The position numbers and the translations under genes were made by a program. This document shows, piece after piece, positions 6,244 to 53,519 of a stretch of 64,000 bases of DNA (positions are counted from its first letter, which is position 1; each line of letters opens with the position of its first letter). Source of the stretch: Vicinamibacterales bacterium (GTDB lineage: Bacteria > Acidobacteriota > Vicinamibacteria > Vicinamibacterales > 2-12-FULL-66-21); NCBI GenBank assembly GCA_035758845.1, contig DASTVZ010000012.1:35097-99096 (forward strand), read 5' to 3'. The notes below the pieces were generated by a model. The model saw only the letters and a list, made by a program, of their open reading frames with translations. It had not been told where the DNA came from and ran no database searches.

Positions 6244-6348
6244 GCAGTCGCTGTCGTTCATTCATTTTGCGGCCATGACCTTCCTTGTCACGACCACGCT
6301 GCACAATGGCTCGACAGTCAACTGCATTCACGTCAGGAGCGCCACCGT

Positions 6349-46320: not shown

Positions 46321-47760
46321 TCAGTATTTCGTCTGGGACGGATCGACCTTATCGATCCACGCCAGAATCCCACCCTTGAGGTTGCTGACGCGGGTGAACC
46401 CGCGTTCCTGGAGCAACGACACGGCCTTCGCGCTTCGTCCACCCATCTTGCAATGCACGATCATCTCTCGGTTGCGATCGAGCTCACCCGTGCGCTGCGC
46501 CAGCTCACCGAGCGGGATGAGCTTCGAGCCTTCGATCCGGCAGATCTGGTATTCGTTTGGCTCGCGCACGTCCAGCAGGAAGAAATCCTCGCCGCGGTCC
46601 CTCTTCGCCTTCATCTCCTCGACAGTGACCTCCGGCACACCAGCCGATGCCGGCTGCGCGTGCGCTGGGACGACGCCGCAGAACTGGTCGTAGTCGATGA
46701 GCGCGTGGATGCTGGGATGATCGCCGCAGATCGGGCACTCGGGATCGCGCCGAAGTTTCAGCTCGCGGAACCGCATCTGCAGGGCGTCGTACAGCAAAAG
46801 ACGGCCGATGAGCGGCTGACCACTCCCGAGAATCAGCTTGATCGCTTCGGTCGCTTGAATCACGCCAATCACGCCGGGAAGCACGCCGAGCACGCCACCT
46901 TCAGCGCAGCTCGGAACCAGACCTGGAGGCGGCGGCTCGGGATACAGGCACCGGTAGCACGGGCCACCCTTGACCGCGAACACTGACGCCTGTCCGTCAA
47001 ACCGGAAGATGCTGCCGTAGGCGTTCGGCTTTCCGAGCAGCACGCACGCGTCGTTCACCAGATATCGCGTCTGAAAGTTATCCGTGCCGTCGAGGATGAC
47101 GTCGTAGTCCTTCAGCACGTCGAGCGCGTTCTTCGAGGTCAGCGCGAGTTCGTGCATCACGACCTTGACTGACGGATTCATCGCCGTCAATCGATCGCCC
47201 GCCGCTTCCAGCTTCCGCTTGCCGACGTCTGTCGTGTCGTAGATCACCTGGCGGTGCAGGTTGCTCGCGTCGACGGCGTCGAAATCGACGAGACCAAGCG
47301 TGCCAACTCCGGCGGCGGCGAGATACATCGAGGCTGGCGCGCCCAGCCCTCCCGCGCCGACGCACAGGACCCGGGCCGCCTTCAACTTGCGCTGCCCGTC
47401 AACACCGACCTCCGGCATGATCAAGTGCCGGCTGTAGCGCTGCACCTCTTCACGCGTGAGTTCGGGCGCGTCGACGGCGGCCCCCGACCCTCCGGCAACC
47501 GAAGGGACAATGCTGATCGTGTCGCCGGCGCTCAGCGGGGTCTGCTCGCGGTCGAGGTGACGAATGTCTTCGTCGTTCACATAAATGTTCACGAAGCTGC
47601 GGAGACGACCGTCCTCGTTGTAGAGGTGCCGTCGCAGGTCACCGTATTGGCCGACGAGACGTTGCAGCGCGTCACCGACGGTCCTGCCTTCAACTTCGAC
47701 GAACTCCTGCTTCCCGGCGAACGGACGAAGCGGCGTCGGAATCAGAATGCGATGGGGCAT
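46321..47760 (-). CDS. Fusion protein: MoaD/ThiS-like sulfur-carrier domain, then MoeB/ThiF-type E1 adenylyltransferase, then rhodanese
   Basis: ORF 46321..47928 trimmed to ATG 47760. Residues 1-93 form a beta-grasp domain ending IVPSVAGG. Then YSRHLIMPEVG...VGAGGLGAP, CxxC pairs, and a C-terminal rhodanese with the active loop HCKMGGRS. Confidence 0.8.
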   Translation of the reverse strand: MPHRILIPTPLRPFAGKQEFVEVEGRTVGDALQRLVGQYGDLRRHLYNEDGRLRSFVNIYVNDEDIRHLDREQTPLSAGDTISIVPSVAGGSGAAVDAPELTREEVQRYSRHLIMPEVGVDGQRKLKAARVLCVGAGGLGAPASMYLAAAGVGTLGLVDFDAVDASNLHRQVIYDTTDVGKRKLEAAGDRLTAMNPSVKVVMHELALTSKNALDVLKDYDVILDGTDNFQTRYLVNDACVLLGKPNAYGSIFRFDGQASVFAVKGGPCYRCLYPEPPPPGLVPSCAEGGVLGVLPGVIGVIQATEAIKLILGSGQPLIGRLLLYDALQMRFRELKLRRDPECPICGDHPSIHALIDYDQFCGVVPAHAQPASAGVPEVTVEEMKAKRDRGEDFFLLDVREPNEYQICRIEGSKLIPLGELAQRTGELDRNREMIVHCKMGGRSAKAVSLLQERGFTRVSNLKGGILAWIDKVDPSQTKY

Positions 47761-47783: not shown

Positions 47784-49043
47784 TTACACCTGCGGCAACG
47801 CCGCCGCCTGATCCCCCGATCGGAGGTACGCTTCGAAATCCTCGAGCGATCGCCCGATTTCGACCCTCGGCGCGACGCGCGGACCGGTCGTCTCCGCCGC
47901 GGTCTTGTAACCGTTCCCGGTAATGCACACCACGACCGACTCGTTCGATGGTATGACGCCCGCGCGGACCAGTTGGATCGCGCCTGCCAGTGTCGCACCG
48001 CCCGCCGGTTCGGTGAACACGCCTTCGGTCTCCGCCAAAAGCTCCATCGCCTGCAGAATTTCGTCGTCACTCGACGCCACACCAGTGCCGCCGGTTGATT
48101 TGACCGTCCGAACGACCTGGAAGCCGTCAGCAGGATTTCCGATCGCAATCGACTTCGCAATCGTGGCCGGTTTTACCGGTTCAGGAAATTCGAGATCCTG
48201 CTGGAGCGCGCGCACGACCGGTGCGCATCCCGCCGCCTGAGCCGCATGAATCTTCGGCAACTCGCCATCGACGAGGCCGATCTCACGCAACTCGCGGAAG
48301 CCGCGAAGGATGCGCGGAAGCAGTGTTCCTCCCGCAACCGGCGAGACCAGATGCTGCGGAAATCGCCAGCCTAGTTGTTCGGCGACCTCGAATCCTACGG
48401 TCTTGGCCCCTTCGGCGTAGTAACTCCGCAGGTTGATGTTTGCGAATCCCCATCCGAGCCTGTCCGCGATCTGCGTACAGAGCCGGTTCACATCGTCGTA
48501 GTTTCCGCGCACGCCGATGAGATGTGGCCGGAAGACGGCGGAACCGAGCACCTTGCCAAGTTCGAGGTCGTGGGGAATGAAAACGTAGCACTCGAGACCA
48601 AGTCGGGCGGCATGCGCCGAGACGCTGTTGCCGAGATTACCAGTGGAAGCGCAACCAAACACGGTGAATCCGAGTTCCACCGCGCGCGTCGCAGCCATCG
48701 ACACAACGCGATCCTTGTAGGACAGCGTCGGATGATTCACCGAATCATCTTTGATATACAGCTCCTGCAATCCAAGCCGCTTCGCCAGCCGATCCGCGCG
48801 AATGAGCGGCGTGTACCCCGAATGAAACCCGGTTCGCGGCTCGCCGGTGATCGGCAGCAGCTCCTTGAAGCGCCACACGTTCCTGGCGCGCCGCTCGATG
48901 AGATCGCGCGTCACGGCACCACGAACGGCATCGTAATCGTAGGCAACCTCCAGCGGGCCGAGACACTGATCGCAGACCCACAGTGCTTCGGCGGGGAACT
49001 TCGTCCCGCACAAGTGGCACTGCAGCCCTGTCATGAACGTCAT
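47784..49043 (-). CDS. Threonine-synthase-like PLP enzyme (second ThrC paralogue, candidate homocysteine-forming enzyme)
   Basis: 419 aa with an N-terminal Cys4 ribbon (CHLCG...CDQC) and PLP-lysine motif HPTLSYKDR. The start overlaps the thrB stop (ATGA). Confidence 0.75.
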   Translation of the reverse strand: MTFMTGLQCHLCGTKFPAEALWVCDQCLGPLEVAYDYDAVRGAVTRDLIERRARNVWRFKELLPITGEPRTGFHSGYTPLIRADRLAKRLGLQELYIKDDSVNHPTLSYKDRVVSMAATRAVELGFTVFGCASTGNLGNSVSAHAARLGLECYVFIPHDLELGKVLGSAVFRPHLIGVRGNYDDVNRLCTQIADRLGWGFANINLRSYYAEGAKTVGFEVAEQLGWRFPQHLVSPVAGGTLLPRILRGFRELREIGLVDGELPKIHAAQAAGCAPVVRALQQDLEFPEPVKPATIAKSIAIGNPADGFQVVRTVKSTGGTGVASSDDEILQAMELLAETEGVFTEPAGGATLAGAIQLVRAGVIPSNESVVVCITGNGYKTAAETTGPRVAPRVEIGRSLEDFEAYLRSGDQAAALPQV

Positions 49044-49984
49044 GCGTGACCTTTCCGATGCACTCGCACGGTTCGCACCGTGCAGGCTATCCGTTCCTTT
49101 CGATACGCCTCGCGAAGCATTCGTTCAGCTGCCGTGGTCCTGCCGGTTGTAAACGCCGCAATCGACGGCCCAGCCCCGCTCAGGCAGAACCCGATCACAT
49201 CAGGATGCCGCACACTGAGCACTCGACGCAAACCCGGCACAAGCCGCTCGCGATACGGCTGATGCACGCGATCCCCGAGCGCCTCCCGAAAACCCTCGAC
49301 GTTGCCGGTGCCGAGCGACCCCAACAGCAATGCGAGATGCTGCAGATTGAACACCGCATCGGGAAGCGGTAGTCGCCGCGGCAACACTCGGCGCGAAACT
49401 GACGTCCGCAACTCCGCATCGGGCGTCGCGACGACGATTCGCCATTTCGCGGGCCATGGCCATTGTGTCACGGCTATGGACCCGTCGTTCGCAACGCAAC
49501 AACTCGTAAATCCGCCGAAGAGCGCCGGCGCCGCGTTATCCGGGTGCCCTTCAATCTCGGTCGCCAAACGCAGGATGTCGTCGGCGGGCCGTCGTCCGTT
49601 GACCAGCTCGCCGAGTCGTAGACCGGCAATGGCGGCCGCCGCGCTGCTGCCAAGCCCGCTTCGAAGTGGAATTTCGCTCTTTACATCCACGACGAGCGAC
49701 GGAGTCCGAGCCCGCGTCCGCGACGACGGAAAGTTCCGAAACGCCTCTTCGATTCGATTCGGACCACCGAGGGGTCCATTCGCGAAGCGGCACTCGAGCC
49801 GGCCGCGCCCGTCAGCGATCACTGCCGCGACCCGCACTCGAAGATACAAACTGACGGCAACGCCAAGCGTGTCGAATCCGGGGCCAAGATTGGAGATCGA
49901 CGCGGGAACGACGATCTCCTGTCCTGTCGCGCCGTCGCTCCGGCGAGAACGGAGCGCAGGCGCACCCGGTCCTACGCGCTGCAT
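49040..49984 (-). CDS. thrB: Homoserine kinase
   Basis: 314 aa, GHMP kinase, with PASISNLGPGFD and IPLRSGLGSSAAAA. Confidence 0.85.
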   Translation of the reverse strand: MQRVGPGAPALRSRRSDGATGQEIVVPASISNLGPGFDTLGVAVSLYLRVRVAAVIADGRGRLECRFANGPLGGPNRIEEAFRNFPSSRTRARTPSLVVDVKSEIPLRSGLGSSAAAAIAGLRLGELVNGRRPADDILRLATEIEGHPDNAAPALFGGFTSCCVANDGSIAVTQWPWPAKWRIVVATPDAELRTSVSRRVLPRRLPLPDAVFNLQHLALLLGSLGTGNVEGFREALGDRVHQPYRERLVPGLRRVLSVRHPDVIGFCLSGAGPSIAAFTTGRTTAAERMLREAYRKERIACTVRTVRVHRKGHA

Positions 49985-51822
49985 TCGCCGTCCATGACCT
50001 CCGGGTTGAACGCATGATCCTCGCCGGGATCGATAAAGTCGGCCGGCAGGGCATCCTCAGGCGTCATCTGCTCGAGATCCGCAAGCGCCGCGCGGGCCCG
50101 TGCCGTATCGACGCGCTGGAAGAATGCGGGGGCCGTCTCACCGGTGTTGTGCTCATCCTGATAGAGACGCAGCAATCGCTCGACCGCTTCAGGGACGCGA
50201 CGGGCAGGTATCTTCGCCGTCAGCCGTCCAAAGCTCGCCGCCTGCTGACCAGCGCCGCCGCCGAGCATCACGAAGTACTGCGGCACGACACGATCGCCAA
50301 GTTTTCGGATGCTCCCCTGGAATCCAATCGTCGCAATGTGATGCTGCCCGCACCCGTTCGGACATCCGCTGATCTTGATCTTTGCCTCCGACGCTTCGCG
50401 CAACAGCTTCGCCGGCTGCCTCTCCAAGTTGTCGCCGATCAATCGCGCGAGGCCTCGCGATTGCGTGACCGCGAGACGGCATGATTCCGCCCCCGGGCAA
50501 CTCGTCACATCGGTGATTGTGCTCGCACCCGAGAGACCGAGGCCAGCCGCGGCAAGCCGGCGATACAGACCGGGCACCTGTCCGCTTCGCACCCAGCGCA
50601 TCACCACATTCTGATCGACGGTCACCCGCACCATGCCGTCGCTATACGCTCTCGAGAGCAGCGCCAGCGCGCGCATCTGCCCGGCGGTGATGTCGCCGAG
50701 CACGAGCGACACGATCACCTCGCAGTACTCTCCCTGCTTCTGCGGCCGCAGATTCGTCTGCAGCCATTCCGTCCGCTCACGTCCGGGGCTGCCGTCGGTC
50801 GGGTGAACCTCCGGGACGATGCCTGGCCCTTTCACGGGACCAGCAGTCACGAGCGCCGTGATGTCAGCAATCGCAGGTTGCGGCAGCCGCTCGCCGTCGG
50901 GCGGCCCCTCAACTGGCGGATGCTCAGGATCGAACGGCAACTCCGCGCCACCGTTCGCGCGCAAATCCTCGAGCTCATGATGGAACGCCGCGTGCCATGC
51001 GTCCCACCCCATCGACTTGACGAGGAACTTCAGCCGGTTGCGTTGCTTGTGCTCGTAGTCGCCATGTTTATGGAACACGCGCAGCACTGCTTCCGCGACC
51101 ATCAAAATGTCGCAGGCGGGCAGGAACTCGTACAGCGACGCGCCTGAGCGGCACATGATCGCGGTGCCGCCCGCGACCTGTACGCGGAACCCACGTCGAC
51201 CGGAACCGTCCGGCGCCATCATGGCGCGCCATCCGATGTCGTTAATCGAGGTGACGGCGTGGTCCTCGGACGCGCAGCCTTCGAATCCAATCTTGAATTT
51301 CCGCGGCAGCACGGAGCTGAGTGGATGACGCAGTAAATACCGCGACATAGCTTCGGCGTAGGGTGTGACGTCGAACACTTCGTCGCGGGCAACGCCGGCG
51401 TGTGGACAGGCCGTGATGTTTCGCACCGAGTTCCCGCACGCCTCGCGCGTCGTCAGGCCAGCCTCGGCGAGATGGCGCATCGCCGGCTCGGCATCGTGCA
51501 GGCGCACAAAGTGCAGCTGCATGTTCTGCCGTGTGGATATGTGACCGAATCCGCGCGAGTAGCGCTCCGCCACATCAGCGAGCGCTTCCAGCTGCGAGGC
51601 GTCGAGCACGCCTTGCGGGATCTTGACGCGCAACATCTGCGCGTCCATGTCCTGCCGCTGCCCGTACGTGCCGCGGAGCAACCGGAACTTCCGCCACTCC
51701 TCGGGAGAGATCTCGCCGCGCTCGAACTTGTCGAGCATCTGTACGAACGAATCGATGTCCGCCGTGTCAGCGAAAGTCAGCCGACTGCGGCCGTACGTGC
51801 GGGGGTCGTCTAAAACAGCCAT
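49972..51822 (-). CDS. Sulfite reductase hemoprotein (ferredoxin-type NirA/Sir family)
   Basis: 616 aa with siroheme/4Fe-4S cysteine motifs TSCPGAESCRLA and SGCPNGCGQHH. Context is sulfur metabolism and siroheme synthesis. Confidence 0.8.
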   Translation of the reverse strand: MAVLDDPRTYGRSRLTFADTADIDSFVQMLDKFERGEISPEEWRKFRLLRGTYGQRQDMDAQMLRVKIPQGVLDASQLEALADVAERYSRGFGHISTRQNMQLHFVRLHDAEPAMRHLAEAGLTTREACGNSVRNITACPHAGVARDEVFDVTPYAEAMSRYLLRHPLSSVLPRKFKIGFEGCASEDHAVTSINDIGWRAMMAPDGSGRRGFRVQVAGGTAIMCRSGASLYEFLPACDILMVAEAVLRVFHKHGDYEHKQRNRLKFLVKSMGWDAWHAAFHHELEDLRANGGAELPFDPEHPPVEGPPDGERLPQPAIADITALVTAGPVKGPGIVPEVHPTDGSPGRERTEWLQTNLRPQKQGEYCEVIVSLVLGDITAGQMRALALLSRAYSDGMVRVTVDQNVVMRWVRSGQVPGLYRRLAAAGLGLSGASTITDVTSCPGAESCRLAVTQSRGLARLIGDNLERQPAKLLREASEAKIKISGCPNGCGQHHIATIGFQGSIRKLGDRVVPQYFVMLGGGAGQQAASFGRLTAKIPARRVPEAVERLLRLYQDEHNTGETAPAFFQRVDTARARAALADLEQMTPEDALPADFIDPGEDHAFNPEVMDGECSA

Positions 51823-51827
51823 TGCTC

Positions 51828-52598
51828 TTATCCCAGCAACGCAGACGTACGAGCGGAGGTCTGCTCGCGCTCCTGCGCCGCGATGATTACGGCGAGCGCG
51901 GTCACAGCGCCCACCACGATGATGCCCGGCAGATTCTCCTGATCTTCGATTGCCGCCGAATGGATCGCGTCGAGCGTGCCGTGCCAGGACTGCTCACCCT
52001 CGTGAGAGATCCCAATCAGCACCGCAGCCGGGGTATTCGGCGCCCATCCGGCAGCGAGCAACTCGTTGGCAATTGCCGCACGGTTTGCCATTCCCATCAA
52101 TACGACGACCGTCGCGCTCGCCGGCGCGAGCGAACGCAGAACCGGCGCATACGCCGATTCTGCATGTCCCGAGACGACAACAAAGCCCGACGCGAGGCCG
52201 CGATGTGTCACTGGGATTCCGGCGAGCAGCGGGGCCGCTATGGCGCTGGAGATCCCGGGAACGATCTCGCATTCAATCCCGGCGGCAGCCAGCGCGAGTG
52301 CTTCTTCCCCGCCGCGCCCGAACACAAACGGATCGCCGCATTTCAAGCGGACGACCTGATGACCGCGGCGCGCTTCGCGGATCATCAGCCGGTTGATCGC
52401 ATCCTGCGTGATCGCGGGACGGCCGGCCCGCTTACCGACGAAAAACCGCCGCGCGCGCGGTGCGAACTGCAGCGTGTCGGAATCGATTAACGCATCATAG
52501 AGCACCAGATCCGCCTTTTCGAGGCGCCTGATCGCCCTGAGCGTCAGAAGTTCGGGATCTCCCGGACCGGCGCCGACGAGTGATACGCGTCCTGTCAT
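51828..52598 (-). CDS. cobA: Uroporphyrinogen-III C-methyltransferase
   Basis: ORF 51828..52763 trimmed to the ATG at 52598, which overlaps the upstream stop (ATGA). Contains VSLVGAGPGDPELLT and VRLKCGDPFVFGRGGEE. Confidence 0.9.
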   Translation of the reverse strand: MTGRVSLVGAGPGDPELLTLRAIRRLEKADLVLYDALIDSDTLQFAPRARRFFVGKRAGRPAITQDAINRLMIREARRGHQVVRLKCGDPFVFGRGGEEALALAAAGIECEIVPGISSAIAAPLLAGIPVTHRGLASGFVVVSGHAESAYAPVLRSLAPASATVVVLMGMANRAAIANELLAAGWAPNTPAAVLIGISHEGEQSWHGTLDAIHSAAIEDQENLPGIIVVGAVTALAVIIAAQEREQTSARTSALLG

Positions 52599-53206
52599 TG
52601 CACGAACTCCGGATCGCGACCTGTCGTTCGATCGCGATCGTGCGATGACGCGCGTGACTCGTACAGCGCATTCAGTGCGTCGAGAAGTTGCGGACGCCGC
52701 GCGGCCATCGGAACACCTCGAGCCCGCCATGACTCGCGAATCTCGCGTGCACGTGCGTTCCACTGACTCAGCGTCAGATCATCGGGGAGCATGTAATCGA
52801 TCGCTTCGCGAAGAAGACCCGCGAGTGCCGGTGCTGCGCCGTCGGTGGAGATGGCCAGCGTTACACCGGGACGTCTGACGACGCCCCCGAGATAGACCGT
52901 CGCGTTGGAGGGATCGTCGACCGCATTGACGAACACCTGACGCCGTTCCGCTTCGTGCGCAACAGATCGGTTGACGTCGGACGGAGCCGCCGCGACGACG
53001 AACCATGCCCCATCAAGGTCAGTCGGCTCGAACGCCCTCTGAATGATGTCGACGCCGGCGGCTCGGATCGCATTGCACACGTCGGGCGCGACGACCACGA
53101 CGTGGGCGCCTGCTGCCTGGAGGGCGGCGAGCTTCGATGCGGCAACCGGCCCACCGCCGACCACCACCACGCGACGACCCTGGAGCTTCAGGAACGCGGG
53201 AAACAA
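52595..53206 (-). CDS. Precorrin-2 dehydrogenase / sirohydrochlorin ferrochelatase (SirC/CysG N-terminal type)
   Basis: 203 aa, TTG start. Typical N-terminus FPAFLKLQGRRVVVVGGGPVAASK. Confidence 0.8.
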   Translation of the reverse strand: MFPAFLKLQGRRVVVVGGGPVAASKLAALQAAGAHVVVVAPDVCNAIRAAGVDIIQRAFEPTDLDGAWFVVAAAPSDVNRSVAHEAERRQVFVNAVDDPSNATVYLGGVVRRPGVTLAISTDGAAPALAGLLREAIDYMLPDDLTLSQWNARAREIRESWRARGVPMAARRPQLLDALNALYESRASSHDRDRTTGRDPEFVQ

Positions 53207-53322: not shown

Positions 53323-53360
53323 AAATAAAAAAGCCCGGAAGGCTTTGGCCTCCCGGGCTT
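53323..53360 (-). terminator. Intrinsic terminator (attenuator) of the Cys leader
   Basis: Minus strand: GCCCGGGAGGC-caaa-GCCTTCCGGGC (11 bp including one G.U), followed by TTTTTTATTT. Confidence 0.8.
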
Positions 53361-53398
53361 CGGTTACATCTCGTTGCGCTGGATGTTGTTTCAGGACA

Positions 53399-53482
53399 TC
53401 AACGCGTGGACCGAAGGCAGGGAAGCCCTACGAGCTGCATACAGCAGCAACAAATACACGCGCAGGTATTCCCTGAAAACAT
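53399..53482 (-). CDS. Cys-rich leader peptide (27 aa)
   Basis: Not in the ORF track. ATG TTT TCA GGG AAT ACC TGC GCG TGT ATT TGT TGC TGC TGT ATG ... TGA translates to MFSGNTCACICCCCMQLVGLPCLRSTR. Lies between a promoter and a terminator, upstream of sulfur-assimilation genes. Confidence 0.7.
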   Translation of the reverse strand: MFSGNTCACICCCCMQLVGLPCLRSTR

Positions 53483-53490
53483 TCGGTCAG

Positions 53491-53519
53491 TTATAACGTT
53501 CACTCGTCCGTAAAGTCAA
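53491..53519 (-). promoter_or_regulatory. Sigma-70-type promoter of the Cys leader
   Basis: Minus strand: TTGACT, 17 nt, TTATAA. The leader ATG starts 8 nt after the -10 box, so the transcript may be leaderless. Confidence 0.6.

What the first reader, a model, noticed from the sequence alone, without database searches (positions are those of the whole stretch)
46321..47760. Sulfur-carrier beta-grasp domain ending in GG is fused in-frame to its own E1 and a rhodanese
Residues 1-93 read as a MoaD/ThiS/CysO-type domain ending IVPSVAGG. The chain then continues directly (SGAAVDAPELTREEVQRYSRHLIMPEVG) into a MoeZ-like adenylyltransferase and a rhodanese with the loop HCKMGGRS. Carrier function normally requires a free C-terminal Gly-Gly carboxylate. 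A covalent fusion therefore implies either proteolytic release or a non-canonical role for the domain. A JAMM-type release protease is known for QbsE/QbsD, HcyS/HcyD and CysO/Mec. No JAMM protease gene is present in the operon or window.
Basis: partly seen in the sequence, partly recalled or inferred. Interest (0 to 1): 0.62.

Follow-up and report, generated by a model that had tools for sequence, protein, structure and literature searches.

The report
Sulfur carrier fused to its activating enzyme
A soil acidobacterium encodes its small cysteine-pathway sulfur-carrier protein as the front end of the enzyme that must activate the carrier's free tail; the carrier is almost certainly cut loose by a dedicated peptidase found elsewhere in the genome, and this fused layout is common and has arisen repeatedly in the phylum, so it is a variant of a known system, not a new one.

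Summary
The minus-strand gene at 46321-47760 (479 aa) encodes a CysO-type beta-grasp carrier (res 1-91, ending VAGG), a short disordered linker, a MoeZ-type E1 and a rhodanese.

It is not an artefact. All 120 closest database clusters have the same three domains. Among 80 species genomes with a close carrier, 36 are fused and 44 are free, and the state changes at least 7-10 times on the E1 tree.

The Gly-Gly is invariant in fused proteins that are only 39-61% identical, while the linker varies from about 3 to more than 25 residues. Free relatives carry 0-24 junk residues after GG.

In 79 of the 80 loci a JAMM peptidase gene lies just upstream, usually in the order cysM-JAMM-carrier-E1. However, the genome has two, and one is fused to CysM on another contig. 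That one is the ortholog of the operon JAMM.

Best reading: a precursor cut after GG by the JAMM. The released carrier then serves CysM and probably the adjacent ThrC-like enzyme, a MetM-type homocysteine synthase. Orthologs of that enzyme carry SAM riboswitches and MetO-like carriers.

The fused E1 is the genome's only E1. Cleavage is inferred, not shown. This is a variant of a known system and of moderate interest.

The parts
47488..47760 (-). CysO-type beta-grasp sulfur-carrier domain (res 1-91), ending VAGG (G90-G91)
   Evidence: Pfam ThiS E 9e-16. A carrier profile hits M. tuberculosis CysO 3dwg_C at E 1e-24 over its full length. AF2 pLDDT is 92, with TM 0.87 to 3dwg_C. GG is invariant in 15 fused representatives.
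47464..47487 (-). Linker SGAAVDAP after the Gly-Gly (res 92-99); predicted cleavage is between G91 and S92
   Evidence: pLDDT is below 50 for res 90-116. Linker length and sequence are not conserved among fused homologs, and the first residue after GG is mostly A or S.
46666..47463 (-). MoeZ/MoeB-type adenylyltransferase (E1) domain (res 100-365). It has the Arg helix (RYSRH), the GAGGLG nucleotide loop, two CxxC pairs (268-271, 342-345) and Cys285 in PSCAEGG
   Evidence: Pfam ThiF E 1e-82. NCBIfam PRK08762 MoeB scores 475.7 bits against a cut-off of 449. Foldseek matches Uba4 6yub, MoeB 1jw9 and ThiF 1zud. It is the only ThiF-family gene in the genome.
46351..46626 (-). Rhodanese domain (res 379-470) with active-site loop HCKMGGRS (436-443)
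   Evidence: Pfam Rhodanese E 4e-19; motif position.
47784..49043 (-). ThrC paralogue (419 aa) 23 nt upstream of the fusion gene; probable MetM-type O-phosphohomoserine-dependent homocysteine synthase and client of the carrier
   Evidence: Pfam PALP and the thrC model. It scores only 197 bits to solved threonine synthases. Orthologs at 47-61% identity have a SAM-I riboswitch directly upstream in 10 of 10 loci, and a MetO-like carrier gene directly downstream in 7.
49040..49984 (-). Homoserine kinase ThrB, which makes O-phosphohomoserine; it overlaps the next gene by 4 nt
   Evidence: TIGR00191 thrB scores 216 bits against a cut-off of 168; coordinates.
49972..51822 (-). Sirohaem-dependent sulfite reductase (NirA/Sir type), which supplies sulfide
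   Evidence: Pfam NIR_SIR and NIR_SIR_ferr, two copies each.
51828..53206 (-). Sirohaem synthesis genes (uroporphyrinogen-III methyltransferase; precorrin-2 dehydrogenase / CysG N-terminal domain type)
   Evidence: NCBIfam PRK06136, TIGR01469 and TIGR01470.
53330..53503 (-). Cys-rich leader ORF (53399-53503, ...TCACICCCCM...) followed by a 14-bp-stem terminator (53330-53361); it heads the operon
   Evidence: ORF found and terminator. An earlier follow-up report (e1-5033950) reads it as a cysteine attenuator.

Best explanation
The gene encodes a precursor. A CysO-type sulfur carrier is translated as the N-terminal 91 residues of the cell's only MoeZ-type E1-rhodanese enzyme. A JAMM/MPN+ metallopeptidase cuts the Gly91-Ser92 bond. 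The most likely candidate is the JAMM domain fused to cysteine synthase CysM on another contig (G000:C203:7417-8979). This is the same type of reaction that Mec-type JAMMs perform every catalytic cycle when they hydrolyse the CysO-Gly-Gly-cysteine adduct. Cleavage yields a roughly 10-kDa carrier with a free Gly-Gly carboxylate and a free E1. The E1 adenylates the carrier, and the rhodanese persulfide converts it to the thiocarboxylate. The thiocarboxylate donates sulfide-level sulfur to CysM to give cysteine. It probably also donates to the adjacent ThrC paralogue, a MetM-type enzyme that turns ThrB-made O-phosphohomoserine into homocysteine. The freed E1 must also activate MoaD and ThiS in trans. 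The fusion arose from the ancestral adjacent gene pair, carrier then E1, by loss of the stop codon. It is tolerated because the pathway already contains a GG-specific peptidase. Shown here: the domain identities, GG conservation, genomic partners, distribution and riboswitch context. Inferred: the cleavage itself, which JAMM does it, and both client reactions.
For: Domains and fold. GG is invariant while the linker varies from about 3 to more than 25 residues in fused proteins of 39-61% identity. Free relatives of the fused domain (57-69% identical in the 80 species loci, and more in metagenome proteins) end GG plus 0-24 unconserved residues, so trimming after GG is a family trait. Of the 80 species loci, 36 are fused and 44 are free. 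79 have a JAMM gene, or a CysM::JAMM gene, directly upstream, mostly in the order cysM-JAMM-carrier-E1/Rhd; the exception, L072, lies near a contig end. Three loci have both a CysM::JAMM fusion and a carrier::E1 fusion side by side, and two of these (L094, L035) are the window's nearest relatives on the E1 tree. All 80 operon JAMMs are closer to the window genome's CysM-fused JAMM (mean 44% identity) than to its solo JAMM (26%), and both JAMMs keep the E...HSHP...S..D motif. Single chains exist that carry JAMM, carrier, E1 and rhodanese together, with GG retained (P0266, P0279). The genome has only three ThiS-family genes: MoaD beside MoaE, ThiS beside ThiG, and this fusion. CysM::JAMM therefore has no other carrier. 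Twenty of 36 fused genomes have three or fewer ThiS-family hits. There is only one E1 in the genome. The fused/free state changes at least 10 times, with at least 7 forced by well-supported branches, on a 77-sequence E1 tree. Precedents from papers: DRJAMM cleaves the MoaD-MoaE linear fusion (PMC8832034); HvJAMM1 cleaves a SAMP1-MoaE fusion (PMC4443979); Mec matures MetO in the MetM/MetO pathway (PMC13759103, citing Hasebe 2024). MetM link: SAM-I riboswitch upstream of 10 of 10 orthologs examined, and MetO-like carriers downstream of 7. ThrC#1 next to hom is the plant-type threonine synthase (566 bits to 1e5x). The operon is tightly packed behind a Cys leader.
Against: No experiment or proteomic datum shows cleavage. 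The JAMM partner is not in the operon here, and the solo JAMM (C164) cannot be excluded. S. albulus MetM could not be compared directly. In same-order relatives the ThrC#2 ortholog sits in hom-(thrB)-thrC#2 units without a riboswitch. One complete genome (G122) has it as its only ThrC-family gene, so this clade may retain threonine synthase activity. The E1 needed for Moco and thiamin lies in a cysteine-attenuated operon, which is unexplained.
Confidence: 0.68

Rival explanations
1. The N-terminal beta-grasp is never released. It is a built-in regulatory or scaffold domain of the E1, like the Ubl domain at the N-terminus of some Campylobacter-type ThiF proteins, which keep a separate solo ThiS. 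The real carriers would be other proteins.
For: N-terminal Ubl-E1 fusions with a second solo ThiS are described in Iyer et al. 2006 (PMC1779556). The linker can be only about 3-4 residues in some homologs. No cleavage data exist.
Against: The domain is a close CysO homolog, 57-69% identical to free carriers of cysM-JAMM-carrier operons. GG is invariant. The genome has no other CysO-type carrier for CysM::JAMM or the MetM-like enzyme. Most fused genomes have only MoaD, ThiS and the fusion. The fused and free states interconvert repeatedly.
Confidence: 0.1
2. The carrier is released, but by the solo 134-aa JAMM (G000:C164, L008 9933-10337) or by an unrelated protease, not by the CysM-fused JAMM.
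For: The solo JAMM has an intact catalytic motif and scores as high on Prok-JAB as the fused one. Stand-alone JAMMs such as DRJAMM cleave MoaD-MoaE (PMC8832034).
Against: All 80 operon-encoded JAMMs next to this carrier family are orthologous to the CysM-fused domain, not to the solo one. The nearest relatives keep CysM::JAMM directly beside the fusion gene.
Confidence: 0.15
3. The adjacency to ThrB and the ThrC paralogue is incidental. ThrC#2 is an ordinary, second threonine synthase, and the carrier serves CysM only.
For: Same-order orthologs lie in hom-(thrB)-thrC#2 units without riboswitches. G122 has this type as its only ThrC-family gene. It passes the thrC model cut-off.
Against: Thirteen of 15 same-order genomes hold both ThrC#1 and ThrC#2 types. 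Here ThrC#2 and thrB are in the Cys-leader/sulfite reductase operon while ThrC#1 is with hom. More distant orthologs are SAM-riboswitch controlled and paired with MetO-like carriers.
Confidence: 0.25
4. The fusion is an assembly or sequencing artefact: a lost stop codon or a frameshift.
For: None found.
Against: The same in-frame architecture appears in 120 of the 120 nearest clusters, from four data sources, and in 36 species genomes with different linkers.
Confidence: 0.01

Closest known systems
CysO-CysM-Mec-MoeZ protein-thiocarboxylate cysteine pathway (Mycobacterium tuberculosis; Iyer et al. 2006 operon type 4c/4d)
   Same: The carrier is a CysO homolog (E 1e-24, TM 0.87 to 3dwg_C). The E1 is a MoeZ-type adenylyltransferase with a C-terminal rhodanese. 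The partners are a CysM-type synthase and a Mec-type JAMM. Relatives keep the cysM-JAMM-carrier-E1 gene order.
   Different: Here the carrier is fused to the E1 and the JAMM is fused to CysM, giving two chains instead of four. The two chains are unlinked in this genome. The JAMM must also perform a one-off precursor cleavage, not only adduct hydrolysis.
MetM/MetO O-phosphohomoserine route to homocysteine (Streptomyces albulus; Hasebe et al. 2024, as summarised in PMC13759103 and PMC12172450)
   Same: A ThrC-homologous enzyme lies next to a ThiS-family carrier. ThrB supplies O-phosphohomoserine. MoeZ and a Mec-type JAMM are required, and MetO needs JAMM maturation. Orthologs of the window's ThrC#2 carry SAM riboswitches and downstream MetO-like genes.
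   Different: There is no dedicated free MetO here; the only candidate carrier is the CysO-type domain fused to the E1. Control is by a Cys leader rather than a SAM riboswitch. Direct similarity to S. albulus MetM was not testable.
JAMM-processed linear fusions of MoaD/SAMP carriers (D. radiodurans MoaD-MoaE cut by DRJAMM/DR0402; H. volcanii SAMP1-MoaE cut by HvJAMM1; HcyS-Ala cut by HcyD; QbsE cut by QbsD)
   Same: A beta-grasp carrier whose Gly-Gly is followed by more polypeptide and is exposed by a JAMM metallopeptidase (PMC8832034, PMC4443979). The HcyS and QbsE cases are from general knowledge.
   Different: The C-terminal passenger here is the carrier's own activating E1, not its sulfur-acceptor enzyme or a short tail.
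MoaD-MoeB(-rhodanese) fusions catalogued in Archaea and bacteria (PMC11237513)
   Same: The same domain order was noted. That paper mentions moaD-moeBR fusions in Poseidoniales and unclassified Euryarchaeota with over 55% identity to Acidobacteria proteins.
   Different: That paper files them under molybdopterin synthesis and does no functional or context analysis. Here the context is cysteine and homocysteine synthesis, and the genome has a separate MoaD next to MoaE.
Ubl-ThiF fusions of delta/epsilon-proteobacteria and Firmicutes (Iyer et al. 2006, PMC1779556)
   Same: A beta-grasp domain sits at the N-terminus of an E1-like adenylating domain.
   Different: Those Ubl domains are described as distinct from ThiS, and the operons keep a second solo ThiS. 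Here the fused domain is itself the conserved GG-bearing carrier and no solo copy exists.

Membership tests
ThiS/MoaD/CysO sulfur-carrier (beta-grasp) family | Beta-grasp fold with family-level sequence similarity | tested here: met
   Pfam PF02597 E 9e-16. NF041918 scores 60.9 bits against a cut-off of 60. Profile versus CysO 3dwg_C gives E 1e-24. AF2 pLDDT 92, TM 0.87-0.89 to CysO structures.
ThiS/MoaD/CysO sulfur-carrier (beta-grasp) family | Gly-Gly at the end of the beta-grasp domain | tested here: met
   VAGG at residues 88-91. G90 and G91 are invariant in 15 fused representatives, and GG is present in all 80 species loci.
ThiS/MoaD/CysO sulfur-carrier (beta-grasp) family | Free C-terminal Gly-Gly carboxylate available for adenylation | tested here: not met
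   In the encoded chain, 388 residues follow GG. Whether the mature protein has a free GG cannot be told from sequence, so this concerns the precursor only.
MoeZ/MoeB-type E1 adenylyltransferase with rhodanese | ThiF-family Rossmann domain with nucleotide loop, Arg helix, Zn CxxC pairs and a C-terminal rhodanese with active-site Cys | tested here: met
   PF00899 E 1e-82 and PF00581 E 4e-19. GAGGLG 135-140, RYSRH, CYRC 268-271, CPIC 342-345, HCKMGGRS 436-443. PRK08762 scores 475.7 against 449. The MoeZ equivalog PRK07878 scores 532.5, below its cut-off of 647. Foldseek matches Uba4, MoeB and ThiF.
CysM-Mec-CysO-MoeZ cysteine pathway | Co-occurrence with a CysM-type PLP synthase and a JAMM (Mec) peptidase with an intact metal site | tested here: met
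   CysM::JAMM at G000:C203:7417-8979 matches the cysM model at 357 bits (cut-off 394; the cysKM subfamily scores 343.4 against 344.15, just under). Prok-JAB E 9e-25. The motifs ECCG and HSHP...S..D are present. Synteny holds in 79 of 80 related loci.
CysM-Mec-CysO-MoeZ cysteine pathway | Carrier thiocarboxylate formation and sulfur transfer to O-phosphoserine; JAMM hydrolysis after GG | not testable with these tools
   This needs biochemistry.
MetM/MetO homocysteine pathway | ThrC-homologous enzyme genetically tied to a ThiS-family carrier and to methionine regulation | tested here: met
   It is adjacent to the fusion gene (23-nt gap). Orthologs at 47-61% identity have a SAM-I riboswitch in 10 of 10 loci (64-83 bits against a gathering score of 44.4) and a downstream GG-plus-tail carrier in 7.
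MetM/MetO homocysteine pathway | Orthology to the characterised S. albulus MetM; homocysteine synthase activity with O-phosphohomoserine | tested here: inconclusive
   The reference sequence and paper are not held. The orthogroup is set apart from other ThrC types by an identity gap (47% or more versus 39% or less). However, G122 has this type as its sole ThrC-family gene.

The most novel reading that the evidence does not exclude
The fusion is a zymogen-like, pre-loaded complex. The tethered carrier would occupy the carrier site of the (dimeric) E1 and so block the genome's only E1. Cleavage by the JAMM domain of CysM::JAMM would do two things at once. It would create the Gly-Gly carboxylate already seated at the adenylation site, and it would license the E1 to serve MoaD and ThiS. 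One peptidase tied to cysteine synthase would then gate all thiocarboxylate-dependent sulfur traffic: cysteine, homocysteine, molybdopterin and thiamin. The very short linkers in some homologs, with GG only about 10-11 residues before the conserved Arg of the E1 N-terminal helix, are compatible with this but do not show it.
Probability: 0.15. Interest if true: 0.65.

Novelty: new variant of a known kind. Interest (0 to 1): 0.4.

Why it matters
The finding shows that the 'free C-terminus' rule for ubiquitin-like sulfur carriers is routinely met after translation in a major soil phylum. A pathway that already owns a Gly-Gly-specific JAMM peptidase can tolerate anything after GG, including the carrier's own E1, so the carrier and E1 genes fuse and split repeatedly.

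It has practical value for annotation. These proteins are currently named 'MoaD family protein', 'SAMP1' or 'adenylyltransferase/sulfurtransferase'. The neighbouring MetM-like gene is called threonine synthase, so cysteine and methionine routes are mis-scored in Acidobacteriota.

It also offers a simple natural substrate for studying bacterial JAMM specificity. And it links a CysO-type carrier to a probable MetM-type homocysteine synthase outside Actinobacteria.

Tried and rejected
- Frameshift or assembly artefact: rejected.
- 'No JAMM available': rejected at genome level.
- SAM riboswitch or any other Rfam element in the window's own operon: none found, only a tRNA. Control here is by a Cys leader instead.
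- Reading the Hasebe 2024 MetM paper, or obtaining the S. albulus MetM sequence: not held, so direct orthology could not be tested.
- Showing that MetM is the only route to homocysteine: inconclusive. The genome has one true Cys/Met-PLP enzyme that falls below all equivalog cut-offs. It also has a weak, partial MetX-like hit, and the tool's controls never reach that model's cut-off either.
- Whole-model Foldseek search: it only recovers the E1, so the N-domain had to be folded separately.
- Docking geometry of the tethered carrier on the E1: not assessable. The model coordinates cannot be read, and the linker is low-confidence.
- Same-order ThrC#2 orthologs: no riboswitch and no adjacent carrier. 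This weakens the MetM reading but does not overturn it.
Full report
**Observation.** The finding's coordinates hold a minus-strand gene, 46321-47760, of 479 codons. Homologs of 479-480 aa begin at the same M-(P/A)-H-R-I-L-I-P, which supports the ATG at 47760 over the upstream GTG at 47928. Pfam finds ThiS (res 5-91), ThiF (109-343) and Rhodanese (379-470). NCBIfam finds MoeB/MoeZ models over res 97-479 and SAMP1/MoaD models over res 11-91. The carrier ends VAGG at residues 88-91, followed by SGAAVDAPE and then the E1's N-terminal helix LTREEVQRYSRH. The rhodanese loop HCKMGGRS is at 436-443. The E1 keeps its nucleotide loop, both CxxC pairs and the PSCAEGG cysteine.

**Fold.** An AlphaFold model of the whole chain (pLDDT 83.5) has a confident N-domain and a disordered stretch at residues 90-116. 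It matches Uba4, MoeB and ThiF. Folded alone, the N-domain has pLDDT 92 and superposes on M. tuberculosis CysO (3dwg_C, TM 0.87, 41% identity), on the Amycolatopsis CysO, and on SAMP1, Urm1 and MoaD. A sequence profile of the carrier family hits CysO at E 1e-24 over its full length.

**How common it is.** All 120 best 90%-identity clusters (87-99% identical, from several data sources) have the three-domain architecture, and one is named Vicinamibacterales. Among 50%-identity representatives, about 15 of the best 150 are fused, at 41-61% identity; the rest are ordinary MoeZ proteins of about 390 aa. In an alignment of 15 fused representatives, G90 and G91 are invariant. The linker after them ranges from about 3 to more than 25 unconserved residues and usually starts with Ala or Ser.

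A scan of species-representative genomes with a carrier profile returned 80 loci, nearly all Acidobacteriota (Vicinamibacteria, Bryobacterales, Terriglobia). In 36 the carrier runs in frame into E1-rhodanese, and in 44 it is a separate gene immediately upstream of E1-rhodanese. On a tree of the 77 usable E1 sequences, the fused/free state needs at least 10 changes, and at least 7 are forced by well-supported branches. Fusion and fission have therefore happened repeatedly.

**Partners.** In 79 of the 80 loci a JAMM gene (or a CysM::JAMM gene) lies directly upstream, almost always in the order cysM-JAMM-carrier(-)E1/rhodanese. This is the CysM-Mec-CysO-MoeZ cluster type described by Iyer et al. 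2006. The free carriers end GG plus 0-24 unconserved residues, so trimming after GG is a general need of this family. This agrees with the statement that Mec matures MetO.

In three loci CysM and JAMM are also fused and sit beside the carrier::E1 fusion. Two of these (L094, L035) are the window protein's nearest relatives on the E1 tree. Single chains also exist with JAMM-ThiS-rhodanese-ThiF (P0266) and JAMM-beta-grasp-ThiF-rhodanese (P0279), each keeping the internal GG.

**This genome.** The whole-genome search places no JAMM match on the window's contig C194. The 100%-complete genome does have two strong Prok-JAB genes. One is a 520-aa CysM::JAMM fusion on contig C203. The other is a solo 134-aa JAMM on C164. 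Both have intact catalytic motifs. All 80 operon JAMMs are closer to the CysM-fused domain (mean 44% identity, up to 70%) than to the solo one (26%), so the fused domain is the Mec ortholog.

The genome has exactly three ThiS-family genes: MoaD beside MoaE, ThiS beside ThiG, and the fusion. It has exactly one ThiF-family E1, the fused one. Two things follow. CysM::JAMM has no carrier other than the fused domain. The E1 must also serve MoaD and ThiS in trans.

The same pattern is seen elsewhere. Twenty of 36 fused genomes have three or fewer ThiS-family hits. The fused-type E1 is the sole E1 in 10 of 27 genomes checked; Bryobacterales-type genomes add a separate MoeB.

**The neighbour.** The fusion gene is the last gene of a tight minus-strand operon. 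The overlaps or gaps between these genes are 4-23 nt. An 87%-identical relative shows the same synteny.

The other ThrC in the window, next to hom, is a plant-type threonine synthase (566 bits to Arabidopsis TS). ThrC#2 is distant from every solved threonine synthase (197 bits).

Across 301 genomes of the phylum, ThrC#2 has a distinct orthogroup at 47% identity or more; other ThrC types fall at 39% or less. In the ten orthologs of other families that I examined (47-61% identity), a SAM-I riboswitch sits directly upstream in all ten (64-83 bits against a gathering score of 44.4). In seven, a small GG-plus-tail carrier gene follows directly downstream. This is the metM-metO layout reported for Streptomyces albulus, as summarised in PMC13759103 and PMC12172450.

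There are caveats.
- In same-order relatives the ortholog sits in hom-(thrB)-thrC#2 units without a riboswitch.
- Thirteen of 15 such genomes also have ThrC#1, but one (G122) has ThrC#2 as its only ThrC-family gene.
- The S. albulus sequence could not be compared.

I put the MetM-type function at roughly 0.6-0.65.

**Mechanism.** The most likely sequence is as follows.
1. The precursor is made when cysteine is scarce.
2. The JAMM of CysM::JAMM cuts after Gly91. This is the same chemistry it uses on the CysO-Gly-Gly-Cys adduct.
3. The E1 adenylates the freed carboxylate, and the rhodanese persulfide converts it to a thiocarboxylate.
4. CysM and the MetM-like enzyme use the thiocarboxylate.
5. 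The freed E1 also serves MoaD and ThiS.

Fusion gives 1:1 synthesis of carrier and E1, and it costs nothing because the GG-specific peptidase is already part of the pathway. That would explain the frequent fusion and fission. Precedents for JAMM cleavage of linear carrier fusions exist: DRJAMM on MoaD-MoaE and HvJAMM1 on SAMP1-MoaE. None of the cleavage or transfer steps has been shown for this protein.

**Novelty.** The architecture is not unseen. Sources annotate it under various names, and PMC11237513 lists moaD-moeBR fusions and mentions Acidobacteria. Iyer et al. 2006 described a different Ubl-ThiF fusion. I found no functional treatment of a CysO-type carrier fused to its own E1.

Four points appear to be unreported in the papers I could search:
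- the recurrence of the fusion across the phylum;
- the paired CysM::JAMM fusion;
- the all-in-one JAMM-carrier-E1-rhodanese chains;
- the link to a MetM-like enzyme.

Overall this is a variant of a known system and of moderate interest.

Noticed in passing
G000:C203:7417-8979 (L007 7417-8979, + strand): A cysteine synthase (CysM-type PLP domain) is fused to a C-terminal JAMM peptidase domain (520 aa). It is unlinked to any carrier gene. The same double fusion sits next to carrier::E1 fusions in L035, L070 and L094.
   Followed up: partly
L030, L033, L036, L038, L051, L057, L063, L075, L103 (carrier gene ends, about 6270-6300 in most loci): Free-standing carriers of a Terriglobia clade end GG plus short cysteine-rich tails (CARRCICR, SSLRCICS, RPLRCACS, SVTCCICS, SSPRLLVCCCC, CC and others), right before the E1 gene. 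This could be a Cys-codon sensor coupling E1 translation to cysteine supply, or a persulfide relay.
   Followed up: no
window 46666-47463 and whole genome G000: The fused E1 is the only ThiF-family gene in the genome, yet it is the last gene of a cysteine-attenuated operon. How MoaD and ThiS are activated when cysteine is plentiful is unexplained.
   Followed up: partly
L148-L159 (e.g. L152 8270-8373, L149 8289-8389): SAM-I riboswitches lie directly upstream of 'threonine synthase' genes in many Acidobacteriota, often followed by a small GG-plus-tail ThiS-family gene. These look like unannotated metM-metO pairs outside Actinobacteria.
   Followed up: partly
G000:C42:48454-49596 (+): There is a third ThrC-family gene in the genome (39% identical to ThrC#2, 31% to ThrC#1). 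Its context and role were not examined.
   Followed up: no
P0266 (634 aa), P0279 (619 aa), P0252 (486 aa) from metagenomes: Other domain orders of the same parts occur in single chains: JAMM-ThiS-rhodanese-ThiF, JAMM-beta-grasp-ThiF-rhodanese and ThiS-rhodanese-ThiF. Each has an internal GG after the carrier.
   Followed up: partly
window 53330-53503 (minus strand): A leader ORF, MNVITDRMFSGNTCACICCCCMQ..., is followed by a 14-bp-stem terminator with a T run, upstream of the sirohaem/sulfite reductase/thrB/ThrC#2/fusion operon.
   Followed up: partly
G122 (same order), L144: A complete genome whose only ThrC-family gene is the ThrC#2 type, in a hom-thrB-thrC#2 unit near a sulfite reductase. 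This suggests the clade may be bifunctional or may have switched function within the order.
   Followed up: no
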